From the IMG/VR virus record IMGVR_UViG_3300045988_024527, positions 29,796 through 93,795 of that record: a stretch of 64,000 nt of DNA; one strand, given 5' to 3'. The stretch is from a virus. Lineage: Duplodnaviria; Heunggongvirae; Uroviricota; Caudoviricetes. Both the position numbers and the translations under genes were made by a program. The first letter of the stretch is position 1. Every line of letters begins with the position of its first letter. The notes under the pieces are model-generated. The model worked only from the letters and a program-made list of their open reading frames with translations. It searched no databases and was not told the DNA's origin. Shown piece by piece: positions 46,015 through 64,000 of this stretch.

Positions 46015-46081
46015 ATTGTCAATCAACGGGGAGGGAATGACCTTCCCCACTAAATAAAGCCCTAAACTGGAGAATCTAAAA
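45990..46081 (+). repeat. cassette boundary type A
   Basis: TTGACG-17-TAAATT overlapping stop of previous gene; GGGGAGGGAATGACCTTCCCC hairpin. Confidence 0.7.
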
Positions 46082-49189: not shown

Positions 49190-49265
49190 TACTTAGTTTC
49201 TCCATAGGCATCTTTTAAGATTGCCTTATTAATCATTTCAGCGATTGCAAAACGAACACATACAG

Positions 49266-49799: not shown

Positions 49800-49984
49800 T
49801 CAAGGTCAACAAGTCTTTGCAGGACTTTCCCTCTAGGTGTTACACCCTTTAAATCTGCATCATAGCAACGGTAAAAGTCACCTTCAGCGTGTTTACCATA
49901 GCATTTTCTGATATTCTGGCTTCTACGATACTGTTCTAACAGGGACAGCTTGTAGTAGTCTTCAACTGTAGTTAACTTTTTCAT
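49766..49984 (-). CDS. hypothetical protein
   Basis: 72 aa. Confidence 0.35.
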   Translation of the reverse strand: MKKLTTVEDYYKLSLLEQYRRSQNIRKCYGKHAEGDFYRCYDADLKGVTPRGKVLQRLVDLEWNKRLRGIGK

Positions 49985-50526: not shown

Positions 50527-50598
50527 ATCTACTCTCCAGAAACTAAAAAGGGAACTACCTCTCGATAGCTCCCATCATAATCAGTTTTGTATACTCGG

Positions 50599-51180
50599 TC
50601 AAGAGTATTTTTTAGGCAGCAATGCACTGCGCTTGTTACTCTCTTCACTCAATAGTGCGATAAAATCATCGCTTTTACCTTTCCACGGGCTGAATGAAGG
50701 GATATGCTCGCGGATAGCCTCAATCACTGTCTTAAGTGCTGTGTTCTTCATCCACCAATCAGAGTCTGCTGATGCTACCACGTAGTATCCACCGTCATCA
50801 GTTAAAATTGGCTCTGAAATACATGGTGAAATCAAAGTGGTGATGATTGACCCATTGTTCATGTAGTATGTGCGCTTCATAACCTTTTCAAGAAGCTTGT
50901 GAAGGTCACCAAACAATGTTACAAGTTCTTTGTGGTCAATATCTTTTTCTAGGTTTGCTCGATACTTCAATAGTGCGGCATCAACCTCTCTGTCATTGAA
51001 CTTGAAATATTGAACTTCTTCAATAAGGCAAACACTGATATTGTTGACATTCATAGTCAACTTGCAAACTTTTGCAGGAGAGTTGATACTTGGTTGAAAA
51101 AGTGCAATACACCCTTCAATATTTCCAAAGTGTTGTACTAGTGTCACTTGTGGAGTAATATTCTGTTGCTCTTCGGACAT
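50599..51180 (-). CDS. hypothetical protein
   Basis: 193 aa. Confidence 0.5.
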   Translation of the reverse strand: MSEEQQNITPQVTLVQHFGNIEGCIALFQPSINSPAKVCKLTMNVNNISVCLIEEVQYFKFNDREVDAALLKYRANLEKDIDHKELVTLFGDLHKLLEKVMKRTYYMNNGSIITTLISPCISEPILTDDGGYYVVASADSDWWMKNTALKTVIEAIREHIPSFSPWKGKSDDFIALLSEESNKRSALLPKKYS

Positions 51181-51524
51181 TACAGTTTCCTCATTAAATA
51201 CTTTTTAAGTTGTGTGTTAGGTTTCTCAAAAACTTCTATAGAAGATATCTTGACAGATTCACCACGCATACCAGTATGTTTGAATATGTAGTACTCTAAC
51301 ATCCCTATATACTTTGCTGGTAAGTCATGCTTGACATATACCGTCACAGAATCTTCAAACTCAACAACCTTTGTACCATCTTTGTAGTTAAACTCTTTAG
51401 GATGGTCGTAGTTGTCTATGTCGTACATTAAAAAGAGTCTTTTACGTTGTAAGTCAAGCTTATTTGTTAAAGACTCTTTGATATCTGAGAAGTTTTTGTA
51501 CACTGTGACATGGAGCTTACTCAT
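51180..51524 (-). CDS. hypothetical protein
   Basis: 114 aa. Confidence 0.45.
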   Translation of the reverse strand: MSKLHVTVYKNFSDIKESLTNKLDLQRKRLFLMYDIDNYDHPKEFNYKDGTKVVEFEDSVTVYVKHDLPAKYIGMLEYYIFKHTGMRGESVKISSIEVFEKPNTQLKKYLMRKL

Positions 51525-51810
51525 CGTTAAACTCTCTGACGAAGAAATAGTTGACTTTATTATTACCTACCATAAGGTCAAAGCAGGTATTCTCAAAAGG
51601 TTTGTTGTAGGCATCATATGAAACGTATGGGTCAGATACTTGCTTAGTACTTAACTTTTTACTTGATGGGTTTAAGAGGCCACCATATAGCTTCTTGATA
51701 GCCTCTTCTACAACAGACCAGATAATTTCGTCAGTAATTTCTTCGTACAGGTCAAGTTCACGCTCTAGTGAGAAGTCACAAATAGGGAAAACAACCTGTA
51801 CTTTACTCAT
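51517..51810 (-). CDS. hypothetical protein
   Basis: 97 aa. Confidence 0.45.
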   Translation of the reverse strand: MSKVQVVFPICDFSLERELDLYEEITDEIIWSVVEEAIKKLYGGLLNPSSKKLSTKQVSDPYVSYDAYNKPFENTCFDLMVGNNKVNYFFVREFNDE

Positions 51811-52205
51811 TAATGAATCACCTGTGAGACTTGAATTGCTTCAGTTACTGACAAGTCACCTACTTTCTCTTCTTTGATAAAAGTGAAGGTAAGTTCAACA
51901 GGCTCTTGCTCTTCTTGCTCAACTGGAATGCCATTAAGCTCATCAAAGATTGATTGAGTTGTCCAGTCTTCTCCACCATCTGGATAGTGGATTGCATAAA
52001 GAGGAAACTCTAAATTATACCAAGCAAAAACAGGACAACCATCGGCATCATCTCGGCATCTGTGGAGATATGTGTTTGTACCTTCAAAATGCAAATGAAG
52101 ATTACCATTCTTCTCAAAGAGAAGAGCATCTTTCAGGTCTAGTTCCTCATTTTCGCTGTAACGACTGACATCAACTTTAACGTGGATATGACTATTATTA
52201 TTCAT
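51810..52205 (-). CDS. hypothetical protein
   Basis: 131 aa. Confidence 0.45.
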   Translation of the reverse strand: MNNNSHIHVKVDVSRYSENEELDLKDALLFEKNGNLHLHFEGTNTYLHRCRDDADGCPVFAWYNLEFPLYAIHYPDGGEDWTTQSIFDELNGIPVEQEEQEPVELTFTFIKEEKVGDLSVTEAIQVSQVIH

Positions 52206-52596
52206 AAAAACCTCTCTCTGCTTGTTCGATTTTTGCTCTTAAAACTTCACAACGTTCTATGTGATATCTGGCCTCATTCTCATGTATTGCCAAAGTTCTT
52301 TCAAGAACTGTTTTATAGTAACTCGCAAGCTGCTCTCTTGTCAATGGGTGTTCTGAAATAATATCAAGGCCACTTTCACCTAAAGTGTTAAACTGCCCGT
52401 GTTCATTTACATGGTAAGTCTCAAACTTGAACAGGCCGTTGTTAGCAGATTCAATAGGTGAGAGTTTAACAAGTTCTACAGTAAACCGTGTATACACCTT
52501 GTCACCTCTTGAAACTACATTGCTTCCAACAATGCGTACAAGAGAACCATTACGAGTGTACTTAAAAGTTCCAAAGTCACTAGCCCAAAGTTTCAT
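52198..52596 (-). CDS. hypothetical protein
   Basis: 132 aa. Confidence 0.45.
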   Translation of the reverse strand: MKLWASDFGTFKYTRNGSLVRIVGSNVVSRGDKVYTRFTVELVKLSPIESANNGLFKFETYHVNEHGQFNTLGESGLDIISEHPLTREQLASYYKTVLERTLAIHENEARYHIERCEVLRAKIEQAERGFYE

Positions 52597-52606
52597 AGTT
52601 TTCTCC

Positions 52607-52636
52607 TTAGAAAATAAAAAGGCTCCCGAAGGAGCC
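52607..52636 (-). terminator. intrinsic terminator (minus strand)
   Basis: GGCTCC-TTCG-GGAGCC + TTTTTATTTT on minus strand. Confidence 0.65.
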
Positions 52637-52646
52637 TATGAAGATA

Positions 52647-53111
52647 TTACTTTGGATATACACTGTCAAGATAAATGTCAGCTTCCATTCTACGTCTGTT
52701 TTTCAGTCCGTTTGAAGTGACCTTCTGACCTTTAACTGTAACCTTGTTCCACCACTGCATAGCTTCTGCACAACCGACCTTATTACCATCGTTGTGGCGC
52801 TTGATAAATGTGGAGTCCTGCATAGCCGTGATACCAATGTTGTATGTTTCACTTACAAGTGCATCAAACTCATTCTGAGAAGTTGGAACCTTGATGGCTT
52901 TGTTAACTGCTGCAACGAACTTTTCAACATCTGCAAGAAGATACTGTTCAGCTTGTTCAGCAGTAATTTTCATACCCATCTTAACAGGTTTACCAGCAAT
53001 ACGGATAGTCCCATACCCAATTGTGGGGATTCCAGCAGAATCTTCGTAAGCCTCCAGCTTAAGACCTTCAAAGAACTTAATAGCTTCTAAACCTTTTCTT
53101 GAGAGTTGCAT
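52647..53111 (-). CDS. endolysin, T4-lysozyme-like muramidase (GH24)
   Basis: FEGLKLEAYEDSAGIPTIGYGT catalytic motif (Glu/Asp/Thr triad pattern). Confidence 0.8.
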   Translation of the reverse strand: MQLSRKGLEAIKFFEGLKLEAYEDSAGIPTIGYGTIRIAGKPVKMGMKITAEQAEQYLLADVEKFVAAVNKAIKVPTSQNEFDALVSETYNIGITAMQDSTFIKRHNDGNKVGCAEAMQWWNKVTVKGQKVTSNGLKNRRRMEADIYLDSVYPK

Positions 53112-53743
53112 TATACCCCTCCTACTGGGTTAACTGTAACTGTTGCTGCATTAGATGTTACAGAGCCACCTGCACCTGTTACAACACAAGTGTATGAACC
53201 AGCGTCAGAAGGTGCTACTGACTGTTTTGTGTAAGTTGCAGAATTGGCACTAGGGATGTCCTCACCATCCTTTTTCCACTGATATCCAGTGGCGTTAGTT
53301 GCTAGAATGCTTAGAGTAAGTGTGCCACCCTCATTGACTGTTTGATTGGTTGGTTGCTGAGTGATTGATGGTGGCTTGATAGCATCCTTCAGCTTAGCAT
53401 TCAGCATTGAGAAGGGCTTAACTCTTGCCAACCATTCACAATAAACTGTATCAACATCTTTACCATTGATAATTGCATATTGTAAGTCCATGAAGAAGTC
53501 AGAAGTTCTCATTTGAGCACCGATGCTGTAAAGCAACTCATCACTAAATGGGACTTTATAGTCTGGTTTGTAGTCAAACTTCTCAACTTCTGCAATATCA
53601 GCTTCAGGCCAATATGAACTATAGGTAAGTGGTAAAATAGCTTCTTGATATGTTCTAAAATCATATCTCTTACCAGCCTTTACATTTGCAATGAAGCCCT
53701 TCACAAACTCTTTGAAGTCTGGGTAAGTCCTTGCTTTAATCAT
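53111..53743 (-). CDS. hypothetical protein with C-terminal Ig-like domain
   Basis: Ig-like GSYTCVVTGAGGSVTSNAATVTVN; N-terminal half paralogous to 53740-54111. Confidence 0.5.
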   Translation of the reverse strand: MIKARTYPDFKEFVKGFIANVKAGKRYDFRTYQEAILPLTYSSYWPEADIAEVEKFDYKPDYKVPFSDELLYSIGAQMRTSDFFMDLQYAIINGKDVDTVYCEWLARVKPFSMLNAKLKDAIKPPSITQQPTNQTVNEGGTLTLSILATNATGYQWKKDGEDIPSANSATYTKQSVAPSDAGSYTCVVTGAGGSVTSNAATVTVNPVGGV

Positions 53744-54111
53744 TTCTTTTTAGCCTCTAAATGTGCGTTTAGTCTAAAATAACCTTTGTGATGTGGAGAT
53801 ACATCACCAACAACAATACCTTTAACCTTATAACCTTTACCAATTACATACTGGATATCCATAAGGAATCTTCCAAGACCAACAATATGGAACATTGGAT
53901 ATAATAGATTCTCAGAGTCTGGAATATTGATTTCAGGTTTGTAGGTGCGTTGTTCGCTTGTTGGTGTAATATCTTCTTCAGGCCATTTACTGAGTCTCCA
54001 TGTCAAAGGTGTTGGGATAACATCATTAAGGTTGTACCTTTCACCATTTTGCACGGAATTGATATAGGATTGTAGGAAGCAATAAAAGTCTTTTGCACTC
54101 TTAGCCTTCAT
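53740..54111 (-). CDS. hypothetical protein, paralog of N-terminal domain of 53111-53743
   Basis: shared FLMDIQYVI / FMDLQYAI and flanking similarity. Confidence 0.5.
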   Translation of the reverse strand: MKAKSAKDFYCFLQSYINSVQNGERYNLNDVIPTPLTWRLSKWPEEDITPTSEQRTYKPEINIPDSENLLYPMFHIVGLGRFLMDIQYVIGKGYKVKGIVVGDVSPHHKGYFRLNAHLEAKKK

Positions 54112-54159
54112 TAAATATCCTTATAAATAGTTAAAGGGGCATCAGCCCCATATTCACAC

Positions 54160-54750
54160 TTAAGCTTTGGTCTTAAGTAGGTTCTTAAGTTTTTTAAGAT
54201 TCATACTCTCATCAAACTTAAAACCAAATCCATTGACATAATCAATGAACTCGGATTTCTTACTGAGTGACAATGCGTAACTCATATCAAAGTTCTTACT
54301 TGTTTCTGCGTCTGGACTAGAGTTCACATCAAATGAAATTTCTGTAGGTTCTTGCTTACTTTTTCTCATATTATCAACCAACAAACATGTATAGTTTGCT
54401 GGATAGAAGTTTACACTACCATCAACGTAGCTGTACTTATTATTATGGGTAAGGTTGGAAAATACCTTAAGAAATGTTTCTGGGTCGTGGCAAACAAGTT
54501 TGAATTGGCTGCTCTCTCCAAGCGCAGCTAATGAGTACGGACTTTCACTATCAAAGTCATAATTTGGATTCGATGCCGTCACTGTTACACGCATCAAGTT
54601 ATTAGCAATAGTCTTCTGTTTAAAAGAATTTGGGACATAGTGAAGACCTCTATCACACTGATTAACTAATTCTTTCAATAGGTCATTTGCATATGGTGAG
54701 TTAATTGATACAGAGCCATCACTATTGTAATTAAAACTTACTGTTAACAT
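54160..54750 (-). CDS. hypothetical protein
   Basis: 196 aa. Confidence 0.5.
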   Translation of the reverse strand: MLTVSFNYNSDGSVSINSPYANDLLKELVNQCDRGLHYVPNSFKQKTIANNLMRVTVTASNPNYDFDSESPYSLAALGESSQFKLVCHDPETFLKVFSNLTHNNKYSYVDGSVNFYPANYTCLLVDNMRKSKQEPTEISFDVNSSPDAETSKNFDMSYALSLSKKSEFIDYVNGFGFKFDESMNLKKLKNLLKTKA

Positions 54751-54977
54751 TTTTCAGTTCTCCTGCGGTTTATAATTTTGCTGCAATAGAGAAACGAAGT
54801 AAACTCACTGGAAGAAACCATTAAGTGTTGTTCACTAGATTGAGCCATTGCCCTGAAATACATTCCAGTCAAAGCATCATAGTGACTATTCTTTCCAATT
54901 GAGGTTATATAGCCATGACTCTTTGCAGTTTGATATAAATCTATAATATCTGCGATTTCTAATTGGGAACTACACAT
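54744..54977 (-). CDS. hypothetical protein
   Basis: 77 aa. Confidence 0.35.
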   Translation of the reverse strand: MCSSQLEIADIIDLYQTAKSHGYITSIGKNSHYDALTGMYFRAMAQSSEQHLMVSSSEFTSFLYCSKIINRRRTEKC

Positions 54978-55369
54978 AGATAATCCTCTTGTCTTCTGTA
55001 ATTTTGAAAGAACAGGTACAGACCAATTTCAGAGGATGAATAGTAGATTAACTCTACCCTTTTTGATTCCTTACAGTGATTGGTATTCTTACCTTTCTTC
55101 GGTTTATTTGATTTTCTCATTAAGTCTCCTTTGTAGAACAAGGCAGACCTACAGCTTTAAGTAAGATGGTACAGTAATCCATACAACAAGTCAAGAACTA
55201 TTGCAAGTTAAAAAAGTTGTTGACAAAGTACTTGACAAGGTGTAGGCTTATAAATACTTAGAAGATAACTTAAAAGGTTCCTCTAAAAAGGCTATTTAAA
55301 CAGATATCTTTCTGGATATCTATCTTTTATCTTAAAAGCCTTTTAAGAGGTCTTATAAGAGGCATACCA

Positions 55370-55741
55370 ATGAAAAACAGAACAAACAAAGGCCAGTTTA
55401 AAAAAGGCCAGTCTGGAAACCCATCTGGAAGACCGAAAGGCTCACGTAACAAAAGCTCTCTCGTAAAAGCTCAACTGACCATTGATAATTCTGCTGAGTT
55501 TGCTGCAAAGTTGTTTGAGGCAATTGTTACAAGGGACGCTGCTAAGCTTGCAGAGTTCGGTTTGACGACTGACGATGTAAACCTGAAGTCGATGATGGAA
55601 GCTGGTAAAACTATCATGACTCACTCAGCAGGTGAGATGAAAGCGATTGCAGCAGACACTAAGAAGACCCCTGATAACGGCGGTCAGTCTCAGACAGATA
55701 ACAAACCAACGTTCTCTGCTGTTGCAACGCTTAAAAAATAA
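55370..55741 (+). CDS. hypothetical protein
   Basis: 123 aa; N-terminal GNPSGRPKGSRNK motif. Confidence 0.45.
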   Translation: MKNRTNKGQFKKGQSGNPSGRPKGSRNKSSLVKAQLTIDNSAEFAAKLFEAIVTRDAAKLAEFGLTTDDVNLKSMMEAGKTIMTHSAGEMKAIAADTKKTPDNGGQSQTDNKPTFSAVATLKK

Positions 55742-55822
55742 TTTTAAAAGGTGTTGACAGGCTCTACAAAGTTGCTCTAAAGTCTGTCACATCAAACAAC
55801 AAATGAGAGAAGAGAGTAAAAT

Positions 55823-57238
55823 ATGAGCGAATTATTTAAACATGCGCACCTTCATGCAGGTCGAACTGAAAATGGTGCTGTAAACCATACTTCATCAATG
55901 TCTGCTCTTGTAGACTTTTACAAAGCTGCTGGTTCAAGCCGTAGCAACGTAGAAATCTTACCAGACCTGTTCTACAAAGCTTTGCGTGAGGATGTTGATG
56001 TTGCAGTTCGTATTTTACTGCATATGCGAGATGTACGAGAAGGTATGGGTGAGCGTAAAGCCTTCAGAACTGTTTTGCTTCAAGCGATTGAAGACAAAGT
56101 TTTAGAGCCTGTACAGGTTCTTCGCATTATGGATAAGAATGCAGAACTTGGTCGTTTTGATGACTTCAAAATCTTCGTAGGTACTCGTTTCGAGACAGAT
56201 GCCTTCAAACATTTAGAAGCAGCATTACTAGACCCTGCAACAGCAGGTTTGGCGGCTAAGTGGTTACCACGAGTCAAACCACGTCATAAGCAGTTTGTAA
56301 AACGTTTCTGCAAGTTTGCCAACTTGAGTGAGAAAGAGTACCGCACACTGTTGTCTGCACTATCTGATACAGTTGAGCAAAAAATCTCTGCTAATGAGTT
56401 TGGTAAGATTGACTACAGTAAGATTCCTTCTCTTGCTGCTGCACGTTACCAAAAGCTGTTTAACCGTAAAGATGGAGAACGTTACAAAGCTTACATCGAG
56501 TCCTTATCAAAAGGTGAGACTAAGATTAACGCTGGTGCTGTTTACCCATACGATGTGATTAAATCTGTCAAGCATGGTAATGCAGATGTTGCTAATGAGC
56601 AGTGGAAAGCACTACCAAACTGGATGGCAGAAGGTGAAAACATCTTGTGTATGTCTGATGTGTCAAGTTCAATGTCTTGGGTGAATTTTGGCTCCATTAC
56701 TGCTCTGGATATTGGTGTATCACTTGCCTTGTATGTAGCAGAACGCAATACAGGTTGCTTTAAGAATGAGTTGATGGTTTATTCAACAAACCCTCACTTC
56801 ATCGAACTGAGTGGTGATTTACGAAACCGTCATCGTCAGGTGATGCAACACGTTGAATATGGCTCAACTAACTTACAAGCAGCTTTTGACCGCATTCTTG
56901 AGACAGGCAAAAGAAACAACTTGACTCAGAAAGATATGCCAAGTAAGCTTATCATCTTCTCCGATATGGAGTTCAATCATGTTGATGGGGCTGATGGTCG
57001 TACAAACTTTGAAGCAATTCAGAGTAAGTACAAAAAAGCTGGATATGAGATGCCACAACTGGTATTCTGGTACTTAGCAAACCGTAATGGTACTTGCGAA
57101 GTGTCTGTTAAGGATAACGGTGTAGCAATGGTATCTGGTTTCTCTCCAGCCACTTTAAAAGCTTTGCTTGGTGGTGAGAAGTTTGACCCAATCAGCGTAA
57201 TGCTCAAAGCAGTAATGATTGACCGTTATATCTGGTAA
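55823..57238 (+). CDS. vWA-like domain protein
   Basis: MIDAS-like CMSDVSSSMS; 471 aa. Confidence 0.5.
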   Translation: MSELFKHAHLHAGRTENGAVNHTSSMSALVDFYKAAGSSRSNVEILPDLFYKALREDVDVAVRILLHMRDVREGMGERKAFRTVLLQAIEDKVLEPVQVLRIMDKNAELGRFDDFKIFVGTRFETDAFKHLEAALLDPATAGLAAKWLPRVKPRHKQFVKRFCKFANLSEKEYRTLLSALSDTVEQKISANEFGKIDYSKIPSLAAARYQKLFNRKDGERYKAYIESLSKGETKINAGAVYPYDVIKSVKHGNADVANEQWKALPNWMAEGENILCMSDVSSSMSWVNFGSITALDIGVSLALYVAERNTGCFKNELMVYSTNPHFIELSGDLRNRHRQVMQHVEYGSTNLQAAFDRILETGKRNNLTQKDMPSKLIIFSDMEFNHVDGADGRTNFEAIQSKYKKAGYEMPQLVFWYLANRNGTCEVSVKDNGVAMVSGFSPATLKALLGGEKFDPISVMLKAVMIDRYIW

Positions 57239-57256
57239 AAAGTTTTAAAAAGGGTA

Positions 57257-57285
57257 TTGACAATGTGTTTAATACCCTTTAATAT
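57257..57285 (+). promoter_or_regulatory. consensus sigma70 promoter upstream of tRNA cluster
   Basis: TTGACA-17 bp-TAATAT. Confidence 0.6.
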
Positions 57286-57403
57286 GTTCTACATAGAAAC
57301 GAAATGAGAGCTTTTCTAAGATACTGAAAAATATTTTAAAAAAGTTCTTGACAATCACTAAAAAATAATGTTAAAGTGGTTACATAGAGTTTGAAAAGTT
57401 TAT

Positions 57404-57480
57404 CTCTGTTTAGCTCAGATTGGTAGAGCGTTCCGTTTGGGGCGGTAAGGCCGGAGGTTCAAGTCCTCCAACAGAGACCA
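57404..57480 (+). tRNA. tRNA-Pro (anticodon UGG), hand-folded
   Basis: acceptor CTCTGTT/AACAGAG, T-arm GGAGG-TTCAAGT-CCTCC, loop TTTGGGG, CCA encoded. Confidence 0.55.
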
Positions 57481-57487
57481 AATTAAT

Positions 57488-57565
57488 GTTCCAGTAGACA
57501 AAATGGTATAGTCACCACTCTTTCAAAGTGGATATCTGAGGGTTCAAATCCCTTCTGGAACGCCA
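57488..57565 (+). tRNA. tRNA-Glu (anticodon UUC), hand-folded
   Basis: acceptor GTTCCAG/CTGGAAC, anticodon stem CCACT/AGTGG loop CTTTCAA, CCA encoded. Confidence 0.55.
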
Positions 57566-57650
57566 GTTTTGACAGAAGACCGATTACAGCAAACAACTTT
57601 TACTTTTCGCGCATAGAAAACATAAAAAGCTTGGTCTGGTCATTAAGAAT

Positions 57651-57727
57651 CGCGGGTATAGAGAAAGGGCGTCTCACATGTCTCATTAGCATGGTAACGG
57701 TTGGTTCGACTCCAACACCCGCCTCCA
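57651..57727 (+). tRNA. tRNA-Met/Ile2 (anticodon CAU) with unpaired 1:72
   Basis: anticodon stem CATGT/GCATG loop CTCATTA, T-arm GTTGG-TTCGACT-CCAAC, C1-C72 mismatch. Confidence 0.45.
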
Positions 57728-57812
57728 AATTTACAGAAGACCGTTTACAGCAAAATTTAATGAAATTTTTAGCGGAAAAAATTGAAAGATACGGTCTGGT
57801 AATACTAAACAT

Positions 57813-57889
57813 GGTTAGGAAGCACATAAGGTATGTGCGGTCGCCTGTTAAGCGAATGGCACAGGGTTCGAGTCCCTGACTAACCGCCA
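57813..57889 (+). tRNA. tRNA-Asn (anticodon GUU)
   Basis: D-arm GCAC-ATAAGGTAT-GTGC, loop CTGTTAA, T-arm CAGGG-TTCGAGT-CCCTG, CCA. Confidence 0.6.
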
Positions 57890-57898
57890 AATTTAAAT

Positions 57899-57986
57899 GT
57901 GTCGTTATCCCGTAGATGGTAGCGGTGGGGACTGTAAATCCCTTGTCATTGAGACTCGGTAGGTTCGACTCCTACACGGCACACCA
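57899..57986 (+). tRNA. tRNA-Tyr (anticodon GUA), class II with long variable arm
   Basis: 88 nt; anticodon loop CTGTAAA; T-arm GTAGG-TTCGACT-CCTAC; CCA. Confidence 0.55.
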
Positions 57987-58008
57987 ATACTTAGCGAGAT
58001 ACTTAGTT

Positions 58009-58437
58009 ATGAGAGATGAAGTATACAAATCACAACTTGGTATGAGTTTAGGAACTGCACAAAACAGACTAGTAAAAGATTTGCTATTCGATTTGATATG
58101 TAAAACAAATCAAAATATATGTTTTCAGTGCGGAAAAGAAATGACTAGGGATGATTTCTCCATCGAGCATAAGATTCCGTGGAGACATAGTGAAAATGCA
58201 AAAGAGCTTTTCTTTTCATTAGATAATATTTCTTATAGTCATCTTAAATGTAATATGAAAGCAGCAAGACCAGCACAGGTATATGATAGGAAGCCTAAAC
58301 CAATTAAACACGGCACTGCACACAGCTACTCTAAAGGTTGTAGATGCGAGGAGTGTAGGCTGGCTAAGAATGCTGAGGGCAGGAAGCACTATAACCCAGA
58401 AAGGCGTAGGAAGAAGTATTTAAGAAATGGTACATAG
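58009..58437 (+). CDS. HNH endonuclease
   Basis: CFQCGKEM..FSIEHKIPW..HLKCN HNH motif; start set after tRNA-Tyr (track ORF 57916 overlaps tRNA). Confidence 0.6.
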   Translation: MRDEVYKSQLGMSLGTAQNRLVKDLLFDLICKTNQNICFQCGKEMTRDDFSIEHKIPWRHSENAKELFFSLDNISYSHLKCNMKAARPAQVYDRKPKPIKHGTAHSYSKGCRCEECRLAKNAEGRKHYNPERRRKKYLRNGT

Positions 58438-58443
58438 GGTTTT

Positions 58444-58519
58444 GGGGTGTTAGTTTAGACGGGTAAAATACTGGATTGTCTCTCCTGAGCCGCGAGTTCG
58501 ATTCTCGCACACCTCGCCA
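58444..58519 (+). tRNA. tRNA, anticodon unresolved (non-canonical anticodon arm; GUC/Asp possible)
   Basis: clear acceptor GGGGTGT/ACACCTC, T-arm GCGAG-TTCGATT-CTCGC and CCA; anticodon stem not clean. Confidence 0.4.
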
Positions 58520-58946
58520 ATTTTGAGAGGGCTATTTAGCCCCTCCCTTAAAGGGTTCTTACGAGTATCCTTTAAAGGAGCAGAAGACCAAATACAGCAA
58601 GTTACTTAAAATTTCAAGCCAATTCAATTTTGAAAAATTTAAAACTTGGTCTGGCTCAACAAATTTACAGAAGACCGTTTACAGCAAAACTTAAACAATC
58701 TATTTCTCCGGTAAAGAAAAGGCGAAGGTTCGATTCCTTCACTCGGCAGATGTCGAGTTGGTGTAATGGTAGCACTTAAGATGATAAACAACGGTCTGGT
58801 AATTATCTTTGTAGATAAGTTATTAAGCTTCCCTGTGAGTATGCGACCACAAAGGTGAAGGGTAAATTCTAGATTTAAACCCAAAAAGGCACATCGCTAC
58901 AGACCTTAAGCAAGTCTGGGTAGCTTATCTACAAAGATAATTTAAT

Positions 58947-59022
58947 GGAAGTGTAGCAGAATGGTGATGCGGCAGACTTTTAATCTGACAGGCGATGGGT
59001 TCGAATCCCTCCACTTCTACCA
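58947..59022 (+). tRNA. tRNA-Lys (anticodon UUU)
   Basis: acceptor GGAAGTG/CACTTCT, anticodon loop CTTTTAA, T-loop TTCGAAT, CCA. Confidence 0.5.
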
Positions 59023-59026
59023 ATAT

Positions 59027-59103
59027 GGTTCAGTCGCAGATAAGGTAATGCAAGGGTCTCATAAGCCCTATGAATGTGGGTTCGATTCCCATCTGAACCT
59101 CCA
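59027..59103 (+). tRNA. tRNA-Met (anticodon CAU)
   Basis: acceptor GGTTCAG/CTGAACC, anticodon stem AGGGT/GCCCT loop CTCATAA, T-arm GTGGG-TTCGATT-CCCAT, CCA. Confidence 0.55.
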
Positions 59104-59111
59104 ATTTATAG

Positions 59112-59606
59112 GTGATACTTATGATTTGTGCTAACAAAGATTGCGGAAATGAAGCCGTTAAAGGTGGAAAATTTTGCTCACGCTCTTGTTCTGCAAAAGT
59201 GAACAACAAGAAACACCCAAAGAGAAGTCAGGAAGGCTCTTGCCATTCATGCGGAAAGGTAACGCCAAAAGCGAGAAAATACTGTGACGAATGTATTGCA
59301 GGTGGAGTCATGAAAAAACATAAGACCCATCATGAAAAAAGCAAAGCCAAATCACTGCACGTTAAAAAGTCTCGTGACAGACTGAAGAAGGCTTTAGTTG
59401 ATTACAAGGGTGGTTGTTGTTCAATTTGTGGTTACAATAGGTGCATAAAGGCTCTAGAGTTTCACCACTTAGACCCTAAGACAAAAGACTTCACAGTAAG
59501 TAAAAAACACTACTCACTGGCTACAATGCAGTCTGAAGTTGATAAGTGTGTCTTGCTTTGTGCAAATTGTCACAGAGAAGTACACGAAGGGGTAACAATG
59601 CTGTGA
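59112..59606 (+). CDS. HNH endonuclease
   Basis: EFHHLDP..CVLLCANCHREVH HNH motif plus N-terminal Cys-rich region. Confidence 0.65.
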   Translation: MILMICANKDCGNEAVKGGKFCSRSCSAKVNNKKHPKRSQEGSCHSCGKVTPKARKYCDECIAGGVMKKHKTHHEKSKAKSLHVKKSRDRLKKALVDYKGGCCSICGYNRCIKALEFHHLDPKTKDFTVSKKHYSLATMQSEVDKCVLLCANCHREVHEGVTML

Positions 59607-59675
59607 AAGCACATATGGATGTGCGTTCGGCTGATAACCGAAAGGCAGAAGGTTCGAATCCTTCTCACAGTACCA
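59600..59675 (+). tRNA. tRNA-Ile (anticodon GAU)
   Basis: D-arm GCAC-ATATGGAT-GTGC, anticodon stem TTCGG/CCGAA loop CTGATAA, T-arm GAAGG-TTCGAAT-CCTTC, CCA; 5' end overlaps HNH stop. Confidence 0.6.
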
Positions 59676-59690
59676 ATTTCAAAAAAGTTG

Positions 59691-59719
59691 TTGACATTGA
59701 GATGTGACTACTTTATAGT
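59691..59719 (+). promoter_or_regulatory. consensus sigma70 promoter
   Basis: TTGACA-17 bp-TATAGT. Confidence 0.55.
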
Positions 59720-59923
59720 AACCTTAGTTTTCGTTGCGTAGCGTCTATTTTGCAAATTTAAAATAAATGCAAACGACAATGTTTTTCTGGCAGTAGCTTG
59801 ATAGGCTAAACACCAGTGAGGTCTTCCAATCCCTCATCAAAGAATTTGGCGTACTCGCCCACGGTATGATTAATAAGGTGGGCATCTTTAAGGGCTTTCT
59901 AAGAGAGTCTTTAAAGATAATTA

Positions 59924-60005
59924 CGGGGCGTATCTCAGCTGTCTTCTAAACAGCCGTTAACCGAGTAAGTGGAGTATGCGGGTTCGAGTCCTGCCGCCTC
60001 GACCA
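59924..60005 (+). tRNA. tRNA-like gene, non-canonical (possible anticodon UCU/Arg; no clear D-arm)
   Basis: acceptor CGGGGCG/CGCCTCG, T-arm GCGGG-TTCGAGT-CCTGC, CCA; stem-loop GCTGT-CTTCTAA-ACAGC. Confidence 0.4.
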
Positions 60006-60060
60006 ATTTTGGAGAAATCATGAAAACTTGTATTAGGTGCAAACTTAGCAAGGATGAATA

Positions 60061-60175
60061 GGTAAGGTGTTGAATGTTAAAAAAAAAAAATCCCATTATT
60101 TGACGAGATAGAAAACAACTCAGTAACAAATGGTGACTCTATCGAGCTAATAAAAAAAGTACAAACTCAATCCGC
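60061..60175 (+). repeat. direct repeat copy 1 (start of plasmid unit; repeated at 63889-64000)
   Basis: GGTAAGGTGTTGAATGTTAAAAA..CCCATTATTTGACGAGATAGAAAACAACTC..GCTC near-identical except poly-A length and one substitution. Confidence 0.85.
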
Positions 60176-60995
60176 TCACTTAATACTGAGTGATATTCCT
60201 TACGGAATAGGAGCTGATGATTGGGATGTACTTCATAAAAACTCGAACAATGCCTATCTAGGTTCAAGCCCCGCACAAAAATCAGCTGGTGCCATTTTCA
60301 AAAAAAGAGGAAAGCCTATAAATGGCTGGTCTGATGCAGATAGAAAAATACCTTTAGAGTATCAACAATGGTGTGAAGAGTGGGCGAGGGAATGGTATCG
60401 TGCCTTAAAACCAGGAGCTAGTGCAATCATTTTCGCTGGTAGGAGATTTTCACACAGATGTATTTGCGCAATGGAAAATGCTGGATTTAACCTCAGAGAT
60501 ATAATCGCATGGATGCGAACAAAAGCTCCTCATCGTGCACAAAGGCTAAGCTGCGTATATGAAAGGCGTGGGGACCAATATAACAAAGAAAAATGGGACG
60601 GCTGGAGGGTTGGAAACTTACAGCCAACATTTGAGCCAATACTATGGTTTTCAAAACCCTACAAAATAGGAGGGACTATTGCTGATAACGTTCTATTGCA
60701 TGGTGTTGGAGCATATAACCAAGATGCGTTCACAGCAAGAAATGGAAAACCTGAAAATGTAATACATGCTGGCTTTGAGAGAAATGAAGGTGGATTACAT
60801 CCAACGCAGAAGCCTGTTTCGCTGATGAAAGCGCTAATAGAACTAACTACTCAAGAAGGACAGCTAGTAATAGATCCATTTAGTGGTAGCGGTTCAACTC
60901 TTGTGGCAGCAAAAGAGCTGGGCAGAAACTATATAGGCTTCGAGTTTAACCCAGCATATGTAGAAATAAGCAAAAAAAGATTAGAAGATAAATAA
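60074..60995 (+). CDS. Type II DNA methyltransferase (amino-MTase, motif IV before motif I); frameshifted in A12 tract
   Basis: motif IV SDIPYG, motif I VIDPFSGSGST; ATG at 60074 is out of frame with the body (frame opens at 60081) because of 12-A run at 60079-60090; in-frame in second copy. Confidence 0.75.
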
Positions 60996-61922
60996 CTACT
61001 TAAGTGACAGTATATTATTATCTGTCACTTTATTTATTTGGTCTATCCTACTGTCTATTTTATGCATTTTTATCAACGCACTGACAGCCTCATCCTTGGT
61101 CATCATTAGCATCCTTGTACGTTCAGAAGATAGAAATTCTATAGCCATTTTTTTTGAAACGGCAATACCCTCAGTTGTGGCTGATTTTTCATCACTCCAA
61201 AGCTCAGCTATCCTACTATCATAGCTTAACATTGTTCTATTTATATTCACCCAATATTGCACACTATCTTTGCTAGGGTTGAGTAAAGATACAGATTTAA
61301 ATATTTCACCAAGAAGGTTTTTACTATCTTCAGTTGTTGCTATAGCTGAATATCTTATGAGAACGGCCAGGTGTGTATATGTAAAAACACAAACATTTCG
61401 CAATATAGCTTGCTGATATATTTGACTTGATTTTGTTGGCAACTGATATATTGGACATACAACCATTGCAAAGTCTTTGGTATTTCTCCAACCATCCATA
61501 GCCTGAACTTTAAAGTCTTTTTGATTTTTTGCAGTTCTACTCAAGCGAAATACTTTGGCATCTGCCACAAATGAATAGCTATCGCAAACAACCTCAACAT
61601 CAGCCGCATCTGCCCTTTCAGTCAAAACAATACTATTTAACCCTAAATATTTAAAACATTCTGATATCAGTGCATCTGTATACTTTGAGTACAGTTTTTC
61701 TTCACTTGAATCATGATCATATGACTCAGGTATTGCTGTGCATAACCTAAGGTGGTCTAGTAATGCTTGACTTCCAGATTTCTTAACCTCATCTATTATT
61801 TCATTTTCAACTCTGCTTGAGTCGTTAACAAAGTGACCACTTAGTTTTACTATTTCATCAATCCAGTAACGCCTTCTTATTATTGCATCTTCAGTAATGA
61901 ATTTAAAATTACATAAGTCCAT
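60996..61922 (-). CDS. putative Type II restriction endonuclease
   Basis: 308 aa ORF convergent and abutting the MTase; possible PD-(D/E)xK-like CD..VADAK; no direct motif proof. Confidence 0.45.
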   Translation of the reverse strand: MDLCNFKFITEDAIIRRRYWIDEIVKLSGHFVNDSSRVENEIIDEVKKSGSQALLDHLRLCTAIPESYDHDSSEEKLYSKYTDALISECFKYLGLNSIVLTERADAADVEVVCDSYSFVADAKVFRLSRTAKNQKDFKVQAMDGWRNTKDFAMVVCPIYQLPTKSSQIYQQAILRNVCVFTYTHLAVLIRYSAIATTEDSKNLLGEIFKSVSLLNPSKDSVQYWVNINRTMLSYDSRIAELWSDEKSATTEGIAVSKKMAIEFLSSERTRMLMMTKDEAVSALIKMHKIDSRIDQINKVTDNNILSLK

Positions 61923-62394
61923 TTTTAATACCCGATATAATTAATCAATAACTCAGTATAATCTCGCGATCATAACAGATTTTTTCATCTGCCGAATAAT
62001 AGAACTATCAGTTTATATGGCTAGAGATTCGCTTGTATTTACCATAACATCCGTTGCGTGCACCGCCTGAGAGGCTCTCAGGGCGTTTCTGACGGGAAAC
62101 CGGTAAAACAGGCAACAAACTACCCGAAAACCCGCCAGAAACGCGCAGGCTCTGTTTTTACGGCATGCATGAGTATGCGCGCAAGTGCATAGCGCGGAAA
62201 TTCACGCCATTCAGCCGGGGTAAGTCCTGTTTCCGTCGTTCTTCCCACCCGAAAACGGTGAACGGGGACGCAATTTATTGCGTGGCCGTGAGGCGTTGCC
62301 GGCACAGCCGGAAAACCCGTTTTCAGCACGTTCAGGAAGGGGGCCGATGTACGAATGGTTCAGGGAACGGATCTGAGGTAATCCGGTAGTTACT

Positions 62395-62525
62395 TTGTAG
62401 TTTATCTGTAGTTTTCTTGTAGTCTATTAGTAGTCCGCCACGGTTTTTGTAGTTTTTTTGTAGTCTGCCATCACTAATGCAAAACGTTTTTTGTAGTTTA
62501 TCTGTAGTTTTTGGTTGCTCAGATG
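62395..62525 (+). repeat. iteron-like direct repeats (TTGTAGTYT units)
   Basis: TTTGTAGTTTATCTGTAGTTTT twice plus degenerate TTGTAGTCT copies. Confidence 0.6.
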
Positions 62526-62808
62526 GTCATGCTTGCATGACCATCAAAGAATAGGACGCTTTTTAGCCAAATACCCCTTAACCTACGGAGAGCGCCCTAC
62601 CAAAAAAGATGATTTTTTATCCCTTAAATGGTCATACACCATACGCAACCGCGATTTTCATCGCAATTGCATGAATTAAAAGGTAAAAACTGAATTTCCC
62701 GTTTATTTATGTAATACGCAACGTATTACAACCACCTGTAATCACATGAAAATAAAGAAATAAGATGTAATACCGGCGTATTACACGTACGCTGACCAGC
62801 GAAAAAAG

Positions 62809-62958
62809 TTATAACGCTTCCCTGCCGACAGGCGGGCCAAAATCCACCGGGGCGTGCAGGTTCTCTTCAGTAACCTGCGCCATTAAATCAAAAAGGTCAT
62901 ATTCGCCGGGAAGCTGCGTATCAGTCGCATCCCGTTGTTCATCATATTCAGATGGCAT
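62809..62958 (-). CDS. small acidic hypothetical protein (plasmid)
   Basis: 49 aa ORF with ATG, just upstream of ori region; weak. Confidence 0.25.
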   Translation of the reverse strand: MPSEYDEQRDATDTQLPGEYDLFDLMAQVTEENLHAPVDFGPPVGREAL

Positions 62959-63029
62959 GGGGTGATATCCAGTAGCTGAAAGGTTGTTAGCGGGTTTCGG
63001 GGCGCAGCCCTGAACCAGTCACGTAGCGC

Positions 63030-63860
63030 TAGCGGAGTGTATCCGAGCTTATTATGTTGGCATGAGTGCGATGATCAGGAAAGTGCTTCATGTGGCAGGA
63101 GAAAAATGCAGCAGCGGAGCGTAAGCAGAATATGCGATACAGGAGATATTCCGCTTCCTCGCTCACTGACTCGCTGCGCTCGGTCGTTCGGCTGCGGCGA
63201 GCGGTACAGGCTTACGGGCGGGGCGGAAGTGTCCGGGAAGATGCCAGGGAGAGACGGAAAAGGGAAGCGAGAAGGTCGCGGCGAAGCCGTTTTTCCATAG
63301 GCTCCGCCCCCCTGACAAGCATCGCGAAATCTGACGCTCAAATCAGTGGTGGCGAAACCCGACAGGACTTAAAGATCCCAGGCGTTTCCCCCTGGTAGCT
63401 CCCTCGTGCGCTCTCCTGTTCCTGCCTTTCGGTTTACCGGTGTCATTCCGCTGTTATGGCCGCGTTTGTCTCATTCCACGCCTGACACTCAGTTCCGGGT
63501 AGGCAGTTCGCTCCAAGCTGGACTGTATGCACGAACCCCCCGTTCAGTCCGACTGCTGCGCCTTGTCCGGTAACTATCGTCTTGAGTCCAACCCGGAAAG
63601 ACACGATAAAACGCCACTGGCAGCAGCCATTGGTAACTGATTTACGGAGCGAAGCGTTAAGTGTAATAGAGTTCTTGAAGTGAGCGGCTTACTACAGCTA
63701 CACTGGAAGGACAAATTAGGTCACTGCGCTCCGTGAAAGCCAGTTACCACGGTTCAGAAGTTCCCCAACTAACTGAACCCTGAAAAAGCCGCCTCCCCAG
63801 GCGGTTTTTTCTTTTCAAAAGGCTACGACGAAAGGTTATCCTGCGTCAAGATAACTTTGG
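63030..63860. other. ColE1/p15A-family plasmid replication origin region
   Basis: long stretches match remembered p15A/pMB1 ori (TTTTCCATAGGCTCCGCCCCCCTGACAAGCATC..GCGTTTCCCCCTGG..GTTCGCTCCAAGCTGG..CACGAACCCCCCGTTCAG). Confidence 0.85.
63711..63808 (+). ncRNA. RNA I-like antisense replication control RNA
   Basis: position and similarity to ColE1/p15A RNA I; ends in terminator GCCGCCTCCCCAGGCGG + TTTTTTC. Confidence 0.6.
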
Positions 63861-63888
63861 TAGTTATAATGAAGTGAATAAACCATTG

Positions 63889-64000
63889 GTAAGGTGTTGA
63901 ATGTTAAAAAAAATCCCATTATTTGACGAGATAGAAAACAACTCCGTAACAAATGGTGACTCTATCGAGCTAATAAAAAAAGTACAAACTCAATCCGCTC
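63889..64000 (+). repeat. direct repeat copy 2 (restart of plasmid unit, MTase 5' end in frame with 8-A tract)
   Basis: matches 60061-60175; ATG at 63899 gives MLKKIPLFDEIENNSVTNGDSIELIKKVQTQSA. Confidence 0.85.

What the first reader, a model, noticed from the sequence alone, without database searches (positions are those of the whole stretch)
60079..60090. Homopolymeric A tract at the methyltransferase 5' end differs between repeat copies (12 A frameshift vs 8 A in frame)
In copy 1 the ATG at 60074 runs into a 12-A tract and hits a stop, and the first in-frame ATG (60471) lies after catalytic motif IV. In copy 2 (63899) an 8-A tract keeps ATG-to-motif in one frame. This is either a slipped-strand phase-variable switch of the methyltransferase or a homopolymer sequencing error.
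Basis: seen in the sequence. Interest (0 to 1): 0.6.

Follow-up and report, generated by a model that had tools for sequence, protein, structure and literature searches.

The report
Frameshifted methylase gene captured by phage
The 12-A run is real and knocks the start codon of a DNA methylase gene out of frame, but the "two repeat copies" are two different alleles: one that a Felix O1-like phage stole from a small restriction-modification plasmid, and the plasmid's own. It looks like a one-off slippage mutation, not a proven on/off switch.

Summary
ATG 60074 runs into A12 (60079-60090) and stops at TGA 60101. The methylase frame stays open to 60995, with no ATG/GTG/TTG before 60471. Copy 2 (ATG 63901, A8) is in frame.

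The window is a Felix O1-like phage (1-60058) joined abruptly to a 3.8-kb ColE1-type plasmid that carries a HindIII/EcoVIII-family R-M system. I found the source scaffold. Plasmid sequence runs for 4,882 bp (1.28 units), and then the phage resumes.

Five other metagenome contigs carry the same phage-methylase left junction, and the three that reach the far end show no endonuclease or origin there. So this phage lineage owns an orphan methylase cassette. A12 belongs to the phage allele and A8 to the plasmid allele. The tandem layout is most likely an assembly path through a 710-bp shared stretch, less likely a true cointegrate.

Phage-borne alleles show three tract states:
- A8
- A8GA5 (in frame, MLKKRK)
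- A12, found only here

The intact plasmid protein is on at least 1000 contigs. The tract is interrupted in most relatives.

Verdict: a singleton slipped-strand frameshift in a mutation-prone tract, possibly leaky through transcriptional slippage. A selected phase switch is not shown. Sequencing error is unlikely but not excluded.

The parts
1..60058 (.). Felix O1-like (Felixounavirus) phage genome segment, including the tRNA cluster at 57404-59675
   Evidence: 93-97% nucleotide identity to many Felixounavirus records. tRNAs. More than 70 proteins of phage bumzen align full length without frameshift.
59691..59719 (+). Promoter-like site (TTGACA-17-TATAGT, 11/12) upstream of the tRNA-like gene, the HNH remnant and the captured methyltransferase. 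It is a candidate driver of the phage-borne allele.
   Evidence: This is a consensus match only; function is inferred.
59924..60002 (+). Weak tRNA-like gene just upstream of the insertion site
   Evidence: Rfam RF00005, 31.2 bits against a gathering score of 29. Not called by ARAGORN.
60020..60061 (+). 5' remnant of a phage HNH/endonuclease VII-like gene (13 codons, MKTCIRCKLSKDE), ended by a TAG created at the junction
   Evidence: Intact homologue in phage CRP22 (L002 1571-1918). Translation.
60059..60061 (.). Left phage/plasmid junction with no homology. The phage reference continues ...GATGAA|AATGATTTC, and the plasmid reads ...AACCATT|GGTAAGG.
   Evidence: The identical junction occurs in five other contigs from other sequencing runs.
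60061..60069 (+). Shine-Dalgarno-like GGTAAGGTG retained from the plasmid. The plasmid's own upstream region is lost in copy 1.
   Evidence: Read from the sequence.
60074..60103 (+). Short ORF MLKKKNPII*, produced from the authentic start codon because of the +4 tract
60079..60090 (+). The A12 tract (the finding). It is A8 in the plasmid allele.
60081..60995 (+). Methyltransferase reading frame of copy 1, open throughout but without a start codon until 60471. Hybrid allele: phage-type variants at nt 180-561, plasmid-type from nt 756.
   Evidence: Pfam PF01555, E = 6.9e-49. Variable-site table. Substitution list.
60192..60203 (+). Catalytic motif IV (DIPY)
   Evidence: Read from the translation.
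60471..60995 (+). 174-aa C-terminal ORF from the first in-frame ATG. It holds motif I (DPFSGSGST, 60873-60899) but lacks motif IV.
60996..61922 (-). HindIII-family restriction endonuclease gene, intact at 308 aa
   Evidence: Pfam PF09518, E = 1.5e-105. Annotated as such in NZ_AP027826.1.
61923..63888 (.). ColE1-type plasmid backbone with replication origin. RNAI lies at 63712-63813.
   Evidence: 99.5% identity to the 3,824-bp plasmid NZ_AP027826.1. Rfam RNAI, 77.3 bits.
63889..64000 (+). Start of copy 2: plasmid upstream region, SD, ATG 63901 and A8 at 63906-63913, in frame. The window end cuts it. In the source scaffold it continues as a complete 305-aa gene whose body and 3' end are phage-type, followed by the right junction back into the phage HNH gene.

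Best explanation
A Felix O1-like virulent phage lineage captured, by illegitimate recombination, a 1.05-kb cassette from a small ColE1-type plasmid that encodes a HindIII/EcoVIII-family (AAGCTT) R-M system. The cassette holds the ribosome-binding site, the beta-class N6-adenine methyltransferase gene and about 120 bp of 3' flank. It replaced 168 bp of a phage HNH endonuclease gene.

The A12 tract is the 5' end of this phage-borne orphan allele. The A8 tract is the 5' end of the plasmid allele present in the same sample. The scaffold runs phage -> M (A12) -> R -> ori -> M (A8) -> phage. The two alleles share a 710-bp identical stretch, so this layout is most likely a loop traversal or collapsed repeat in the assembly. 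A true cointegrate made by homologous recombination is less likely.

A12 is a +4 slipped-strand expansion of the ancestral A8. It puts the only usable start codon out of frame, so this allele is off. At best it is weakly expressed through RNA-polymerase slippage or ribosome sliding on the A run, which would give MLKKK- or MLKKKK- proteins.

The allele is probably tolerated because phage growing on a host that carries the plasmid is methylated in trans.

Shown: the architecture, the junctions, the allele assignment, the frameshift and the tract polymorphism.
Inferred: AAGCTT specificity, the assembly loop, trans-complementation and leaky expression.
For: Source and architecture:
- The source scaffold was found and is identical to the window over 13,530 bp.
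- Plasmid homology runs for 4,882 bp. The phage HNH gene then resumes inside an 11/13 microhomology.

The phage owns an orphan cassette:
- An independent 84.5-kb phage contig (L026) has one methyltransferase gene, no R and no ori, and identical left and right junctions.
- Four more contigs share the left junction.

Allele assignment:
- The scaffold-specific variants at nt 180-561 and nt 756-963 are phage-type. They are shared with L027 and L026 and absent from the plasmid sequences.
- Copy 1 changes from phage-type to plasmid-type between nt 561 and 756. Copy 2 changes from plasmid-type to phage-type between nt -14 and nt 180. One reciprocal crossover does not predict this; a collapsed 710-bp repeat does.

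The tract:
- Tract states behind the phage junction are A8 (L027), A8GA5 (L026, L028/L029, L030) and A12 (here only).
- The N terminus tolerates extra residues, since the MLKKRK form recurs.
- The intact plasmid protein is on at least 1000 contigs.

Gene history and benefit:
- The phage allele diverged mostly by synonymous changes, 11 of 14. It therefore evolved as a working gene, which suggests the frameshift is recent.
- 40 AAGCTT sites lie in 60 kb of phage, so protection would matter.

Sequence quality is high elsewhere.

Precedent: an A11 run in Citrobacter rodentium gives 20-25% transcriptional frameshifting (PMC4256274). Runs of 9 or more A/T are slippery in many bacteria (PMC1088944).
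Against: - No reads were available. The true tract length, its heterogeneity, and the physical linkage of plasmid and phage in this sample are all untested.
- A +4 change in one step is unusual for slippage. No intermediate lengths (A9-A11) were found anywhere.
- My searches for other alleles were partly protein-based, so they favour in-frame forms.
- Trans-methylation by a plasmid-bearing host is inferred only from co-assembly.
- Expression of the A12 allele was not measured.
- The synonymous-biased divergence could predate the capture.
Confidence: 0.55

Rival explanations
1. Selected phase-variable (contingency) switch. The A run at codons 3-6 is kept because replication slippage turns the phage's anti-restriction methyltransferase on and off at high frequency. 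A12 is an OFF state that readily reverts.
For: - The run sits in the ORF, and its length sets the frame.
- Three tract states exist behind one and the same phage junction. Plasmid-borne copies are almost always A8.
- A run of 12 is intrinsically hypermutable (established knowledge; discussed in PMC1088944).
Against: - Only one OFF allele was seen, against about 14 in-frame phage-borne occurrences.
- No phage-type truncated product and no MLKKK/MLKKKK alleles are in a collection of 15 billion proteins.
- The commonest expanded allele is interrupted by G (A8GA5), which stabilises it.
- The run is interrupted in the 90%-identity plasmid clade (AAAAGAAA) and in pEC156-size plasmids (AACAAG).
- No benefit of the OFF state is evident.
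Confidence: 0.1
2. Sequencing or assembly error. The true phage allele has an in-frame tract, and A12 is a miscount of a long homopolymer.
For: - The sequence is a metagenome scaffold with no reads to check.
- Long A runs stutter in library PCR (own knowledge).
- A12 is a singleton.
Against: - More than 70 phage proteins are intact in one frame over about 50 kb.
- All other A7/T8 runs in the plasmid part match the relatives. The only other indel against the nearest plasmid is outside a homopolymer.
- The difference from A8 is 4 bases, not 1.
- Related phage contigs from other samples also carry an expanded tract, so expansion here is biologically real.
- A k-mer assembler cannot build A12 from reads that hold only A8 or A8GA5.
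Confidence: 0.15
3. The A12 allele is functionally ON at a useful level through recoding. RNA polymerase slippage on the 12-A run (mRNAs with 11 or 14 A), or ribosome sliding on four consecutive AAA codons, restores the frame often enough to methylate phage DNA.
For: - The run exceeds the roughly 9-nt threshold (PMC1088944).
- An A11 run gives 20-25% frameshifting in an enterobacterium, with mRNAs carrying 10-15 A (PMC4256274).
- The products MLKKK-/MLKKKK- resemble the natural 307-aa MLKKRK allele.
- The rest of the ORF is intact and shaped by purifying selection.
Against: - The out-of-frame arrangement is not conserved in any relative.
- No RNA or protein data.
- The frame needs -1 or +2 nt, whereas the best-documented slippage adds single bases.
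- Methylating 40 or more sites on hundreds of genome copies probably needs more than trace enzyme (inference).
Confidence: 0.2
4. The tandem arrangement is a real phage-plasmid cointegrate. The whole plasmid entered the phage by homologous recombination between the phage-borne and plasmid-borne methyltransferase genes. The frameshifted copy 1 is then complemented in cis by the intact copy 2.
For: - The scaffold is continuous with no N and returns to phage DNA after copy 2.
- 710 bp or more of near-identity between a phage gene and a high-copy plasmid would support Campbell-type integration (established for T4 insertion vectors; own knowledge).
- An intact R next to a broken M would need such complementation.
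Against: - The phage-type/plasmid-type switch points differ in the two copies. One reciprocal crossover is therefore not enough.
- A free plasmid plus a phage with the cassette gives exactly the same assembly graph.
- The three related phage contigs that extend past the gene (L026, L027, L028) show no endonuclease gene or origin after it.
- At 94,450 bp the scaffold is larger than every Felixounavirus record listed (83-90 kb).
Confidence: 0.25

Closest known systems
pEC156 / EcoVIII: a ColE1-type E. coli plasmid carrying a HindIII-isospecific (AAGCTT) type II R-M system (PMC4743918, PMC5974420)
   Same: - Small ColE1-type replicon (RNAI match).
- Beta-class N6-adenine methyltransferase (PF01555) next to a convergent HindIII-family endonuclease (PF09518).
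- The methyltransferase is 87% identical over its first 193 aa to that of 4,315-bp plasmids, the pEC156 size class.
   Different: - The plasmid here is a 3.8-kb relative. It is 99.5% identical to NZ_AP027826.1 and only about 77% identical in nucleotides to the 4.3-kb class in the M 5' region.
- pEC156-type genes have AACAAG where this clade has A8.
- In this window the methyltransferase is also found inside a phage.
Phage-encoded orphan DNA methyltransferases used against restriction (for example Dam-like enzymes of T-even phages and P1, and the multispecific methylases of Bacillus phages; own knowledge)
   Same: A methyltransferase gene without its endonuclease sits in a virulent phage genome (L026). 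The genome is rich in the presumed target site, with 40 AAGCTT in 60 kb.
   Different: - The donor is identifiable at 98% identity, and both capture junctions are preserved. The acquisition is therefore recent and traceable to a specific plasmid family.
- In this scaffold the allele is frameshifted.
Phase-variable methyltransferases (phasevarions; mod genes and type II/III methylases of Haemophilus, Neisseria, Helicobacter)
   Same: A simple repeat inside the 5' part of a methyltransferase ORF, whose length sets the reading frame.
   Different: - The host range is enterobacterial and the carrier is a phage.
- The repeat is not conserved or uninterrupted among relatives.
- The OFF length was seen once.
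- No reversible switching has been shown.
Transcriptional slippage rescue at poly-A runs (Citrobacter rodentium tssM1, A11; PMC4256274)
   Same: A long A run lies in an enterobacterial coding sequence just before a premature stop. The downstream frame is intact.
   Different: In tssM1 the out-of-frame arrangement is conserved and both products are needed. Here the arrangement is a singleton, nothing has been measured, and the run sits at codons 3-6.

Membership tests
Beta-class N6-adenine DNA methyltransferase of the HindIII/EcoVIII group | N6_N4_Mtase domain (Pfam PF01555) | tested here: met
   E = 3.7e-49 for the complete copy and 6.9e-49 for the copy 1 frame.
Beta-class N6-adenine DNA methyltransferase of the HindIII/EcoVIII group | Motif IV (DPPY-like) lies N-terminal to motif I (FxGxG) | tested here: met
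   DIPY at aa 39-42 and DPFSGSGST at aa 266-274, read from the translation.
Beta-class N6-adenine DNA methyltransferase of the HindIII/EcoVIII group | Paired with a HindIII-family endonuclease | tested here: met
   PF09518, E = 1.5e-105, for the convergent 308-aa ORF 60996-61922. This holds in the plasmid context only; the phage cassette lacks it.
Beta-class N6-adenine DNA methyltransferase of the HindIII/EcoVIII group | Methylates AAGCTT | not testable with these tools
   Inferred from 87% identity to the methyltransferase of pEC156-size plasmids and from the endonuclease family. EcoVIII recognises AAGCTT (PMC4743918).
Phase-variable (contingency-locus) methyltransferase | A simple sequence repeat in the ORF or promoter whose length sets expression | tested here: met
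   A12 against A8 at codons 3-6. A12 shifts the frame.
Phase-variable (contingency-locus) methyltransferase | ON and OFF repeat lengths both recur among close relatives or within a population | tested here: not met
   - OFF (A12) is seen only here.
- Phage-borne in-frame forms: A8 (L027, plus P0132 on 6 contigs) and A8GA5 (L026, L028/L029, L030, plus P0134 on 3 contigs).
- No phage-type truncated product is in the collection.
- Within-population variation could not be tested.
Phase-variable (contingency-locus) methyltransferase | The uninterrupted repeat is maintained across the lineage | tested here: not met
   AAAAGAAA in the 90%-identity plasmid clade, AACAAG in pEC156-size plasmids, and A8GA5 in most expanded phage alleles.
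Phase-variable (contingency-locus) methyltransferase | Reversible high-frequency switching | not testable with these tools
   Needs reads or experiments.
Programmed transcriptional slippage (recoding) site | A run of at least about 9 A or T in the coding strand, with an intact downstream frame | tested here: met
   A12. The frame 60081-60995 is open and matches PF01555.
Programmed transcriptional slippage (recoding) site | The out-of-frame arrangement is conserved among orthologues | tested here: not met
   Singleton.
Programmed transcriptional slippage (recoding) site | A heterogeneous mRNA population and a frame-restored protein | not testable with these tools
   No RNA or protein data.
Phage-encoded orphan (anti-restriction) methyltransferase | The methyltransferase gene is fixed in a phage genome without its cognate endonuclease | tested here: met
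   - L026 is an 84.5-kb Felix O1-like contig with a single 307-aa gene between the tRNA region and the terminase/portal genes, and no R or ori.
- The same junctions occur in contigs from other samples.
Phage-encoded orphan (anti-restriction) methyltransferase | Protects phage DNA from the cognate endonuclease | not testable with these tools
   Only circumstantial: 40 AAGCTT sites in 60 kb of phage.
ColE1-type plasmid | RNAI/RNAII-type origin | tested here: met
   Rfam RNAI, 77.3 bits, at 63712-63813. 99.5% identity to the plasmid NZ_AP027826.1.

The most novel reading that the evidence does not exclude
The poly-A run at the start of a methyltransferase gene that a virulent Felix O1-like phage captured from a plasmid acts as a phage contingency locus. 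Phage-polymerase slippage generates length variants: A8, A12, and a 14-nt form later fixed as A8GA5. These variants tune or switch anti-restriction methylation. The out-of-frame A12 state is kept partly active by transcriptional slippage and reverts readily when the phage meets a HindIII/EcoVIII-type host.
Probability: 0.1. Interest if true: 0.65.

Novelty: new member of a known kind. Interest (0 to 1): 0.35.

Why it matters
The frameshift itself is an ordinary slippage mutation. The context it exposed is more useful. It is a traceable, recent capture of a restriction-modification plasmid's methyltransferase by a virulent enterobacterial phage, with both recombination junctions preserved and seen in several metagenome samples.

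- It is a natural example of how lytic phages acquire anti-restriction genes from the defence elements they meet.
- It offers a small test case for how a start-proximal homopolymer behaves once a gene moves from a plasmid to a phage replicon.
- It is a caution for genome scans. A gene shared between a phage and a co-resident plasmid can make an assembler thread a whole plasmid into a phage contig. That creates apparent tandem repeats whose differences are really differences between alleles.

Tried and rejected
- Alternative start codon downstream of the tract: none (ATG/GTG/TTG) in frame between 60081 and 60471. The GTG at 60067 is in frame only for an A7 tract (as in P0127), not for A12. Re-initiation after the 9-codon ORF has no start codon nearby.
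- Generic homopolymer error: rejected as a general explanation by tblastn of 76 bumzen proteins against the window and by the base-by-base comparison with NZ_AP027826.1.
- Source or relatives in curated phage records: no phage record carries this M or R.
- Junction and tract pattern scans of IMG/VR found nothing. The tract pattern scan of GTDB genomes found nothing.
- The metagenome tract scan found 5 contigs, all A8.
- Exact look-ups of hypothetical A11/A14 alleles (MLKKK-, MLKKKK-) on phage and plasmid backgrounds, and of phage-type 174-aa truncation products: none in the collection.
The contexts of P0132 (6 contigs) and P0134 (3 contigs, one of 211 kb) were therefore not inspected.
- A simple reciprocal Campbell integration as the origin of the tandem copies: rejected as sufficient, because the allele switch points differ between the copies.
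- A sigma-70 consensus promoter upstream of copy 2: not found by the scan, although a perfect TATAAT is visible at 63865-63870.

Full report
**1. Observation**

- ATG 60074 is followed by TTA and a run of 12 A (60079-60090). That frame reads MLKKKNPII and stops at TGA 60101-60103.
- The methyltransferase frame is closed upstream by TAA 60078-60080. It is open from 60081 to 60995 and has no ATG, GTG or TTG before ATG 60471.
- 60471 lies beyond motif IV (DIPY, 60192-60203).
- The second copy starts at ATG 63901 (not 63899) with 8 A (63906-63913), in frame.
- About 0.06 A/T runs of 12 or more are expected by composition. A12 is the longest homopolymer in the window.

**2. What the window is**

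- Positions 1-60058 are a Felix O1-like phage. They are 93-97% identical to many Felixounavirus records and include the tRNA cluster.
- Phage similarity stops at 60058, thirteen codons into an HNH/endonuclease VII-like gene.
- From 60061 the sequence is a ColE1-type plasmid, 99.5% identical to the 3,824-bp E. coli plasmid NZ_AP027826.1.
- The plasmid carries a methyltransferase (PF01555), a convergent HindIII-family endonuclease (PF09518, intact at 308 aa) and an RNAI origin.
- The methyltransferase is 87% identical over 193 aa to that of the 4,315-bp plasmids of the pEC156 size class. pEC156 encodes EcoVIII, which recognises AAGCTT (PMC4743918, PMC5974420).

**3. Sequence quality**

- More than 70 proteins of phage bumzen align to the window over their full length in a single frame. 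The only long gene split in two is nrdD, which is interrupted by about 730 bp of extra sequence.
- Against NZ_AP027826.1 the plasmid part has 16 substitutions and two indels. One indel is the +4 A. The other is a 1-bp deletion outside any homopolymer.
- All other A7 and T8 runs agree with five further relatives.
- A systematic homopolymer error is therefore not the explanation.

**4. The source scaffold and what lies beyond the window**

- Looking up the exact 174-aa product of 60471-60995 returned a 94,450-bp metagenome scaffold (ENA ERZ28577067, COST17-1_SAMEA4545312_METAG-scaffold_225). It is identical to the window over 13,530 bp and extends 7 kb further.
- Copy 2 is a complete 305-aa gene.
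- Plasmid homology ends 121 bp after its stop codon, after 4,882 bp in all (1.28 plasmid units).
- The phage HNH gene resumes inside an 11/13 microhomology (CATTAGCATCCTT / CATTTGAATCCTT). DUF7338, DUF7217, terminase and portal genes follow.
- The insert replaces 168 bp of the HNH gene.

**5. The phage lineage owns an orphan methyltransferase**

- A protein search with copy 2 found 307-aa relatives.
- One lies on an independent 84.5-kb Felix O1-like contig (L026, run SRR22424580). That contig has a single methyltransferase gene, no endonuclease, no origin, and exactly the same left and right junctions as the scaffold.
- Four more contigs (L027-L030) share the left junction.
- The minimal cassette (ribosome-binding site, gene, about 120 bp of flank) was therefore captured once and inherited.

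**6. Which allele carries A12**

A table of variable sites gives the following.
- The scaffold-specific substitutions at nt 180-561 are phage-type. They are shared with L027 and absent from all plasmid sequences.
- So are those at nt 756-963, which are shared with L026 and L027.
- Copy 1 = phage junction + A12 + phage-type 5' half + plasmid-type 3' end.
- Copy 2 = plasmid upstream region + A8 + phage-type body and 3' end + phage junction.
- The copies are identical for 710 bp.
- The switch points differ between the copies: nt 561-756 in copy 1, and between nt -14 and nt 180 in copy 2. One reciprocal crossover does not produce this.
- A phage with the cassette plus a free plasmid gives the same assembly graph as a cointegrate. 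Popped bubbles in the shared stretch would then explain the pattern.
- I therefore favour an assembly loop (about 3:1) over a true cointegrate.
- Either way, A12 and the unique synonymous 60122 A sit within 65 nt of the phage junction and belong to the phage allele. A8 belongs to the plasmid allele.

**7. Is the tract a switch?**

- Behind the phage junction the tract is A8 in L027. It is A8GA5 (14 nt, in frame, MLKKRK) in L026, L028/L029 and L030. It is A12 only here.
- Cluster members add phage-type A8 on 6 contigs (P0132) and MLKKRK on 3 contigs (P0134).
- The intact plasmid protein is on at least 1000 contigs. No MLKKK or MLKKKK allele and no phage-type truncated product is in the collection.
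- The five metagenome contigs matched by the tract pattern all have A8.
- In the 90%-identity plasmid clade the run is AAAAGAAA. In pEC156-size plasmids it is AACAAG.
- The tract has therefore changed length at least twice in the phage lineage, so slippage is real there. But the out-of-frame state is a singleton, the commonest expanded form is stabilised by a G, and the uninterrupted run is not conserved.
- This is a mutation-prone tract, not a demonstrated contingency locus.

**8. Consequence of A12**

- With no in-frame start before 60471, the allele cannot make a protein containing motif IV by normal initiation.
- The rest of the gene is intact, and 11 of 14 phage-allele-specific substitutions are synonymous. 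The frameshift is therefore probably recent.
- Runs of 9 or more A are slippery for bacterial RNA polymerase (PMC1088944). An A11 run in Citrobacter rodentium tssM1 gives 20-25% frame restoration, with mRNAs carrying 10-15 A (PMC4256274).
- Transcripts with A11 or A14 would encode MLKKK- or MLKKKK- proteins. These are close to the natural MLKKRK form, so some leaky activity is plausible but unmeasured.
- The phage segment has 40 AAGCTT sites, about twice the expected number. A working methyltransferase would matter on hosts that carry this R-M plasmid.
- The plasmid's presence in the same sample suggests the phage could be methylated in trans, which would relax selection. This is inference.

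**9. Side observation on the plasmid family**

- The 174-aa truncated product is called on 17 other contigs.
- In the nine examined, eight carry the plasmid gene disrupted at several different places. The ninth (L022) starts after nt 231, and no lesion is visible in what it covers.
  - Tract A7 plus A6 in a second A7 run (L017).
  - A5 or A6 in that second run (L020, L021, L024).
  - +1 A in an A5 run (L023).
  - Nonsense codons E12* (L019, L025) and K76* (L018, L019).
- The endonuclease ORF is full length in five of the nine (L019, L020, L022, L023, L024) and broken in three (L017, L018, L021).
- These are rare relative to the at least 1000 contigs with the intact protein. They fit sporadic loss of function rather than one switch site.

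**10. Verdict**

It is wrong about the setting, because these are two alleles from two replicons and not a switching repeat.
- A selected switch remains unproven.
- The kind of feature is known. The capture event it revealed is a new and well-documented example.

Noticed in passing
window 60020-64000; source scaffold L016 9588-14469: A Felix O1-like virulent phage carries a methyltransferase cassette captured from a ColE1-type HindIII/EcoVIII-family R-M plasmid, inserted in an HNH endonuclease gene. The same two junctions occur in an independent 84.5-kb phage contig (L026), and the left junction occurs in four more contigs. In this scaffold a whole plasmid unit is threaded between two hybrid gene copies.
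   Followed up: yes
loci L017-L025 (contigs encoding the same 174-aa product as window 60471-60995): Eight of these nine plasmid-borne contigs carry the methyltransferase gene inactivated at several different sites: indels in three different A runs, and the nonsense codons E12* and K76*. The nonsense codons recur in different samples. The ninth contig (L022) lacks the 5' part. The endonuclease ORF is still full length in five of the nine, which is unexpected for a type II R-M system.
   Followed up: partly
window 23031-25914: The anaerobic ribonucleotide reductase gene (nrdD) is split into two in-frame-conserved halves (23031-24239 and 24970-25914) by about 730 bp that is absent from phage bumzen. 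This is probably an intron or a homing-endonuclease insertion.
   Followed up: no
window 44685-44693: A C9 run, the only other homopolymer of 9 or more in the window. It lies in an intergenic stretch about 200 bp longer than in phage bumzen.
   Followed up: no
window 1-60058: Strong avoidance of some 6-bp palindromes in the phage: AGATCT 0, ATGCAT 0, TGATCA 0, GAATTC 1, ATCGAT 2. AAGCTT occurs 40 times, about twice the expected number. The plasmid unit has no AAGCTT site.
   Followed up: partly
window 59924-60002: A weak tRNA-like gene (Rfam 31.2 bits, with a long variable region) that ARAGORN does not call. It lies immediately upstream of the insertion site.
   Followed up: no
window 63369-63397: A 1-bp deletion and two substitutions, relative to NZ_AP027826.1, inside the ColE1-type origin region.
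   Followed up: no
proteins P0127 and P0134 (cluster of the methyltransferase): P0127 is an A7-tract allele called from the GTG 7 nt upstream of the normal ATG (VLNVKK...), so a -1 tract change can be rescued by an alternative start. P0134 (phage-type, MLKKRK) is reported on a 211-kb contig whose context could not be inspected.
   Followed up: no
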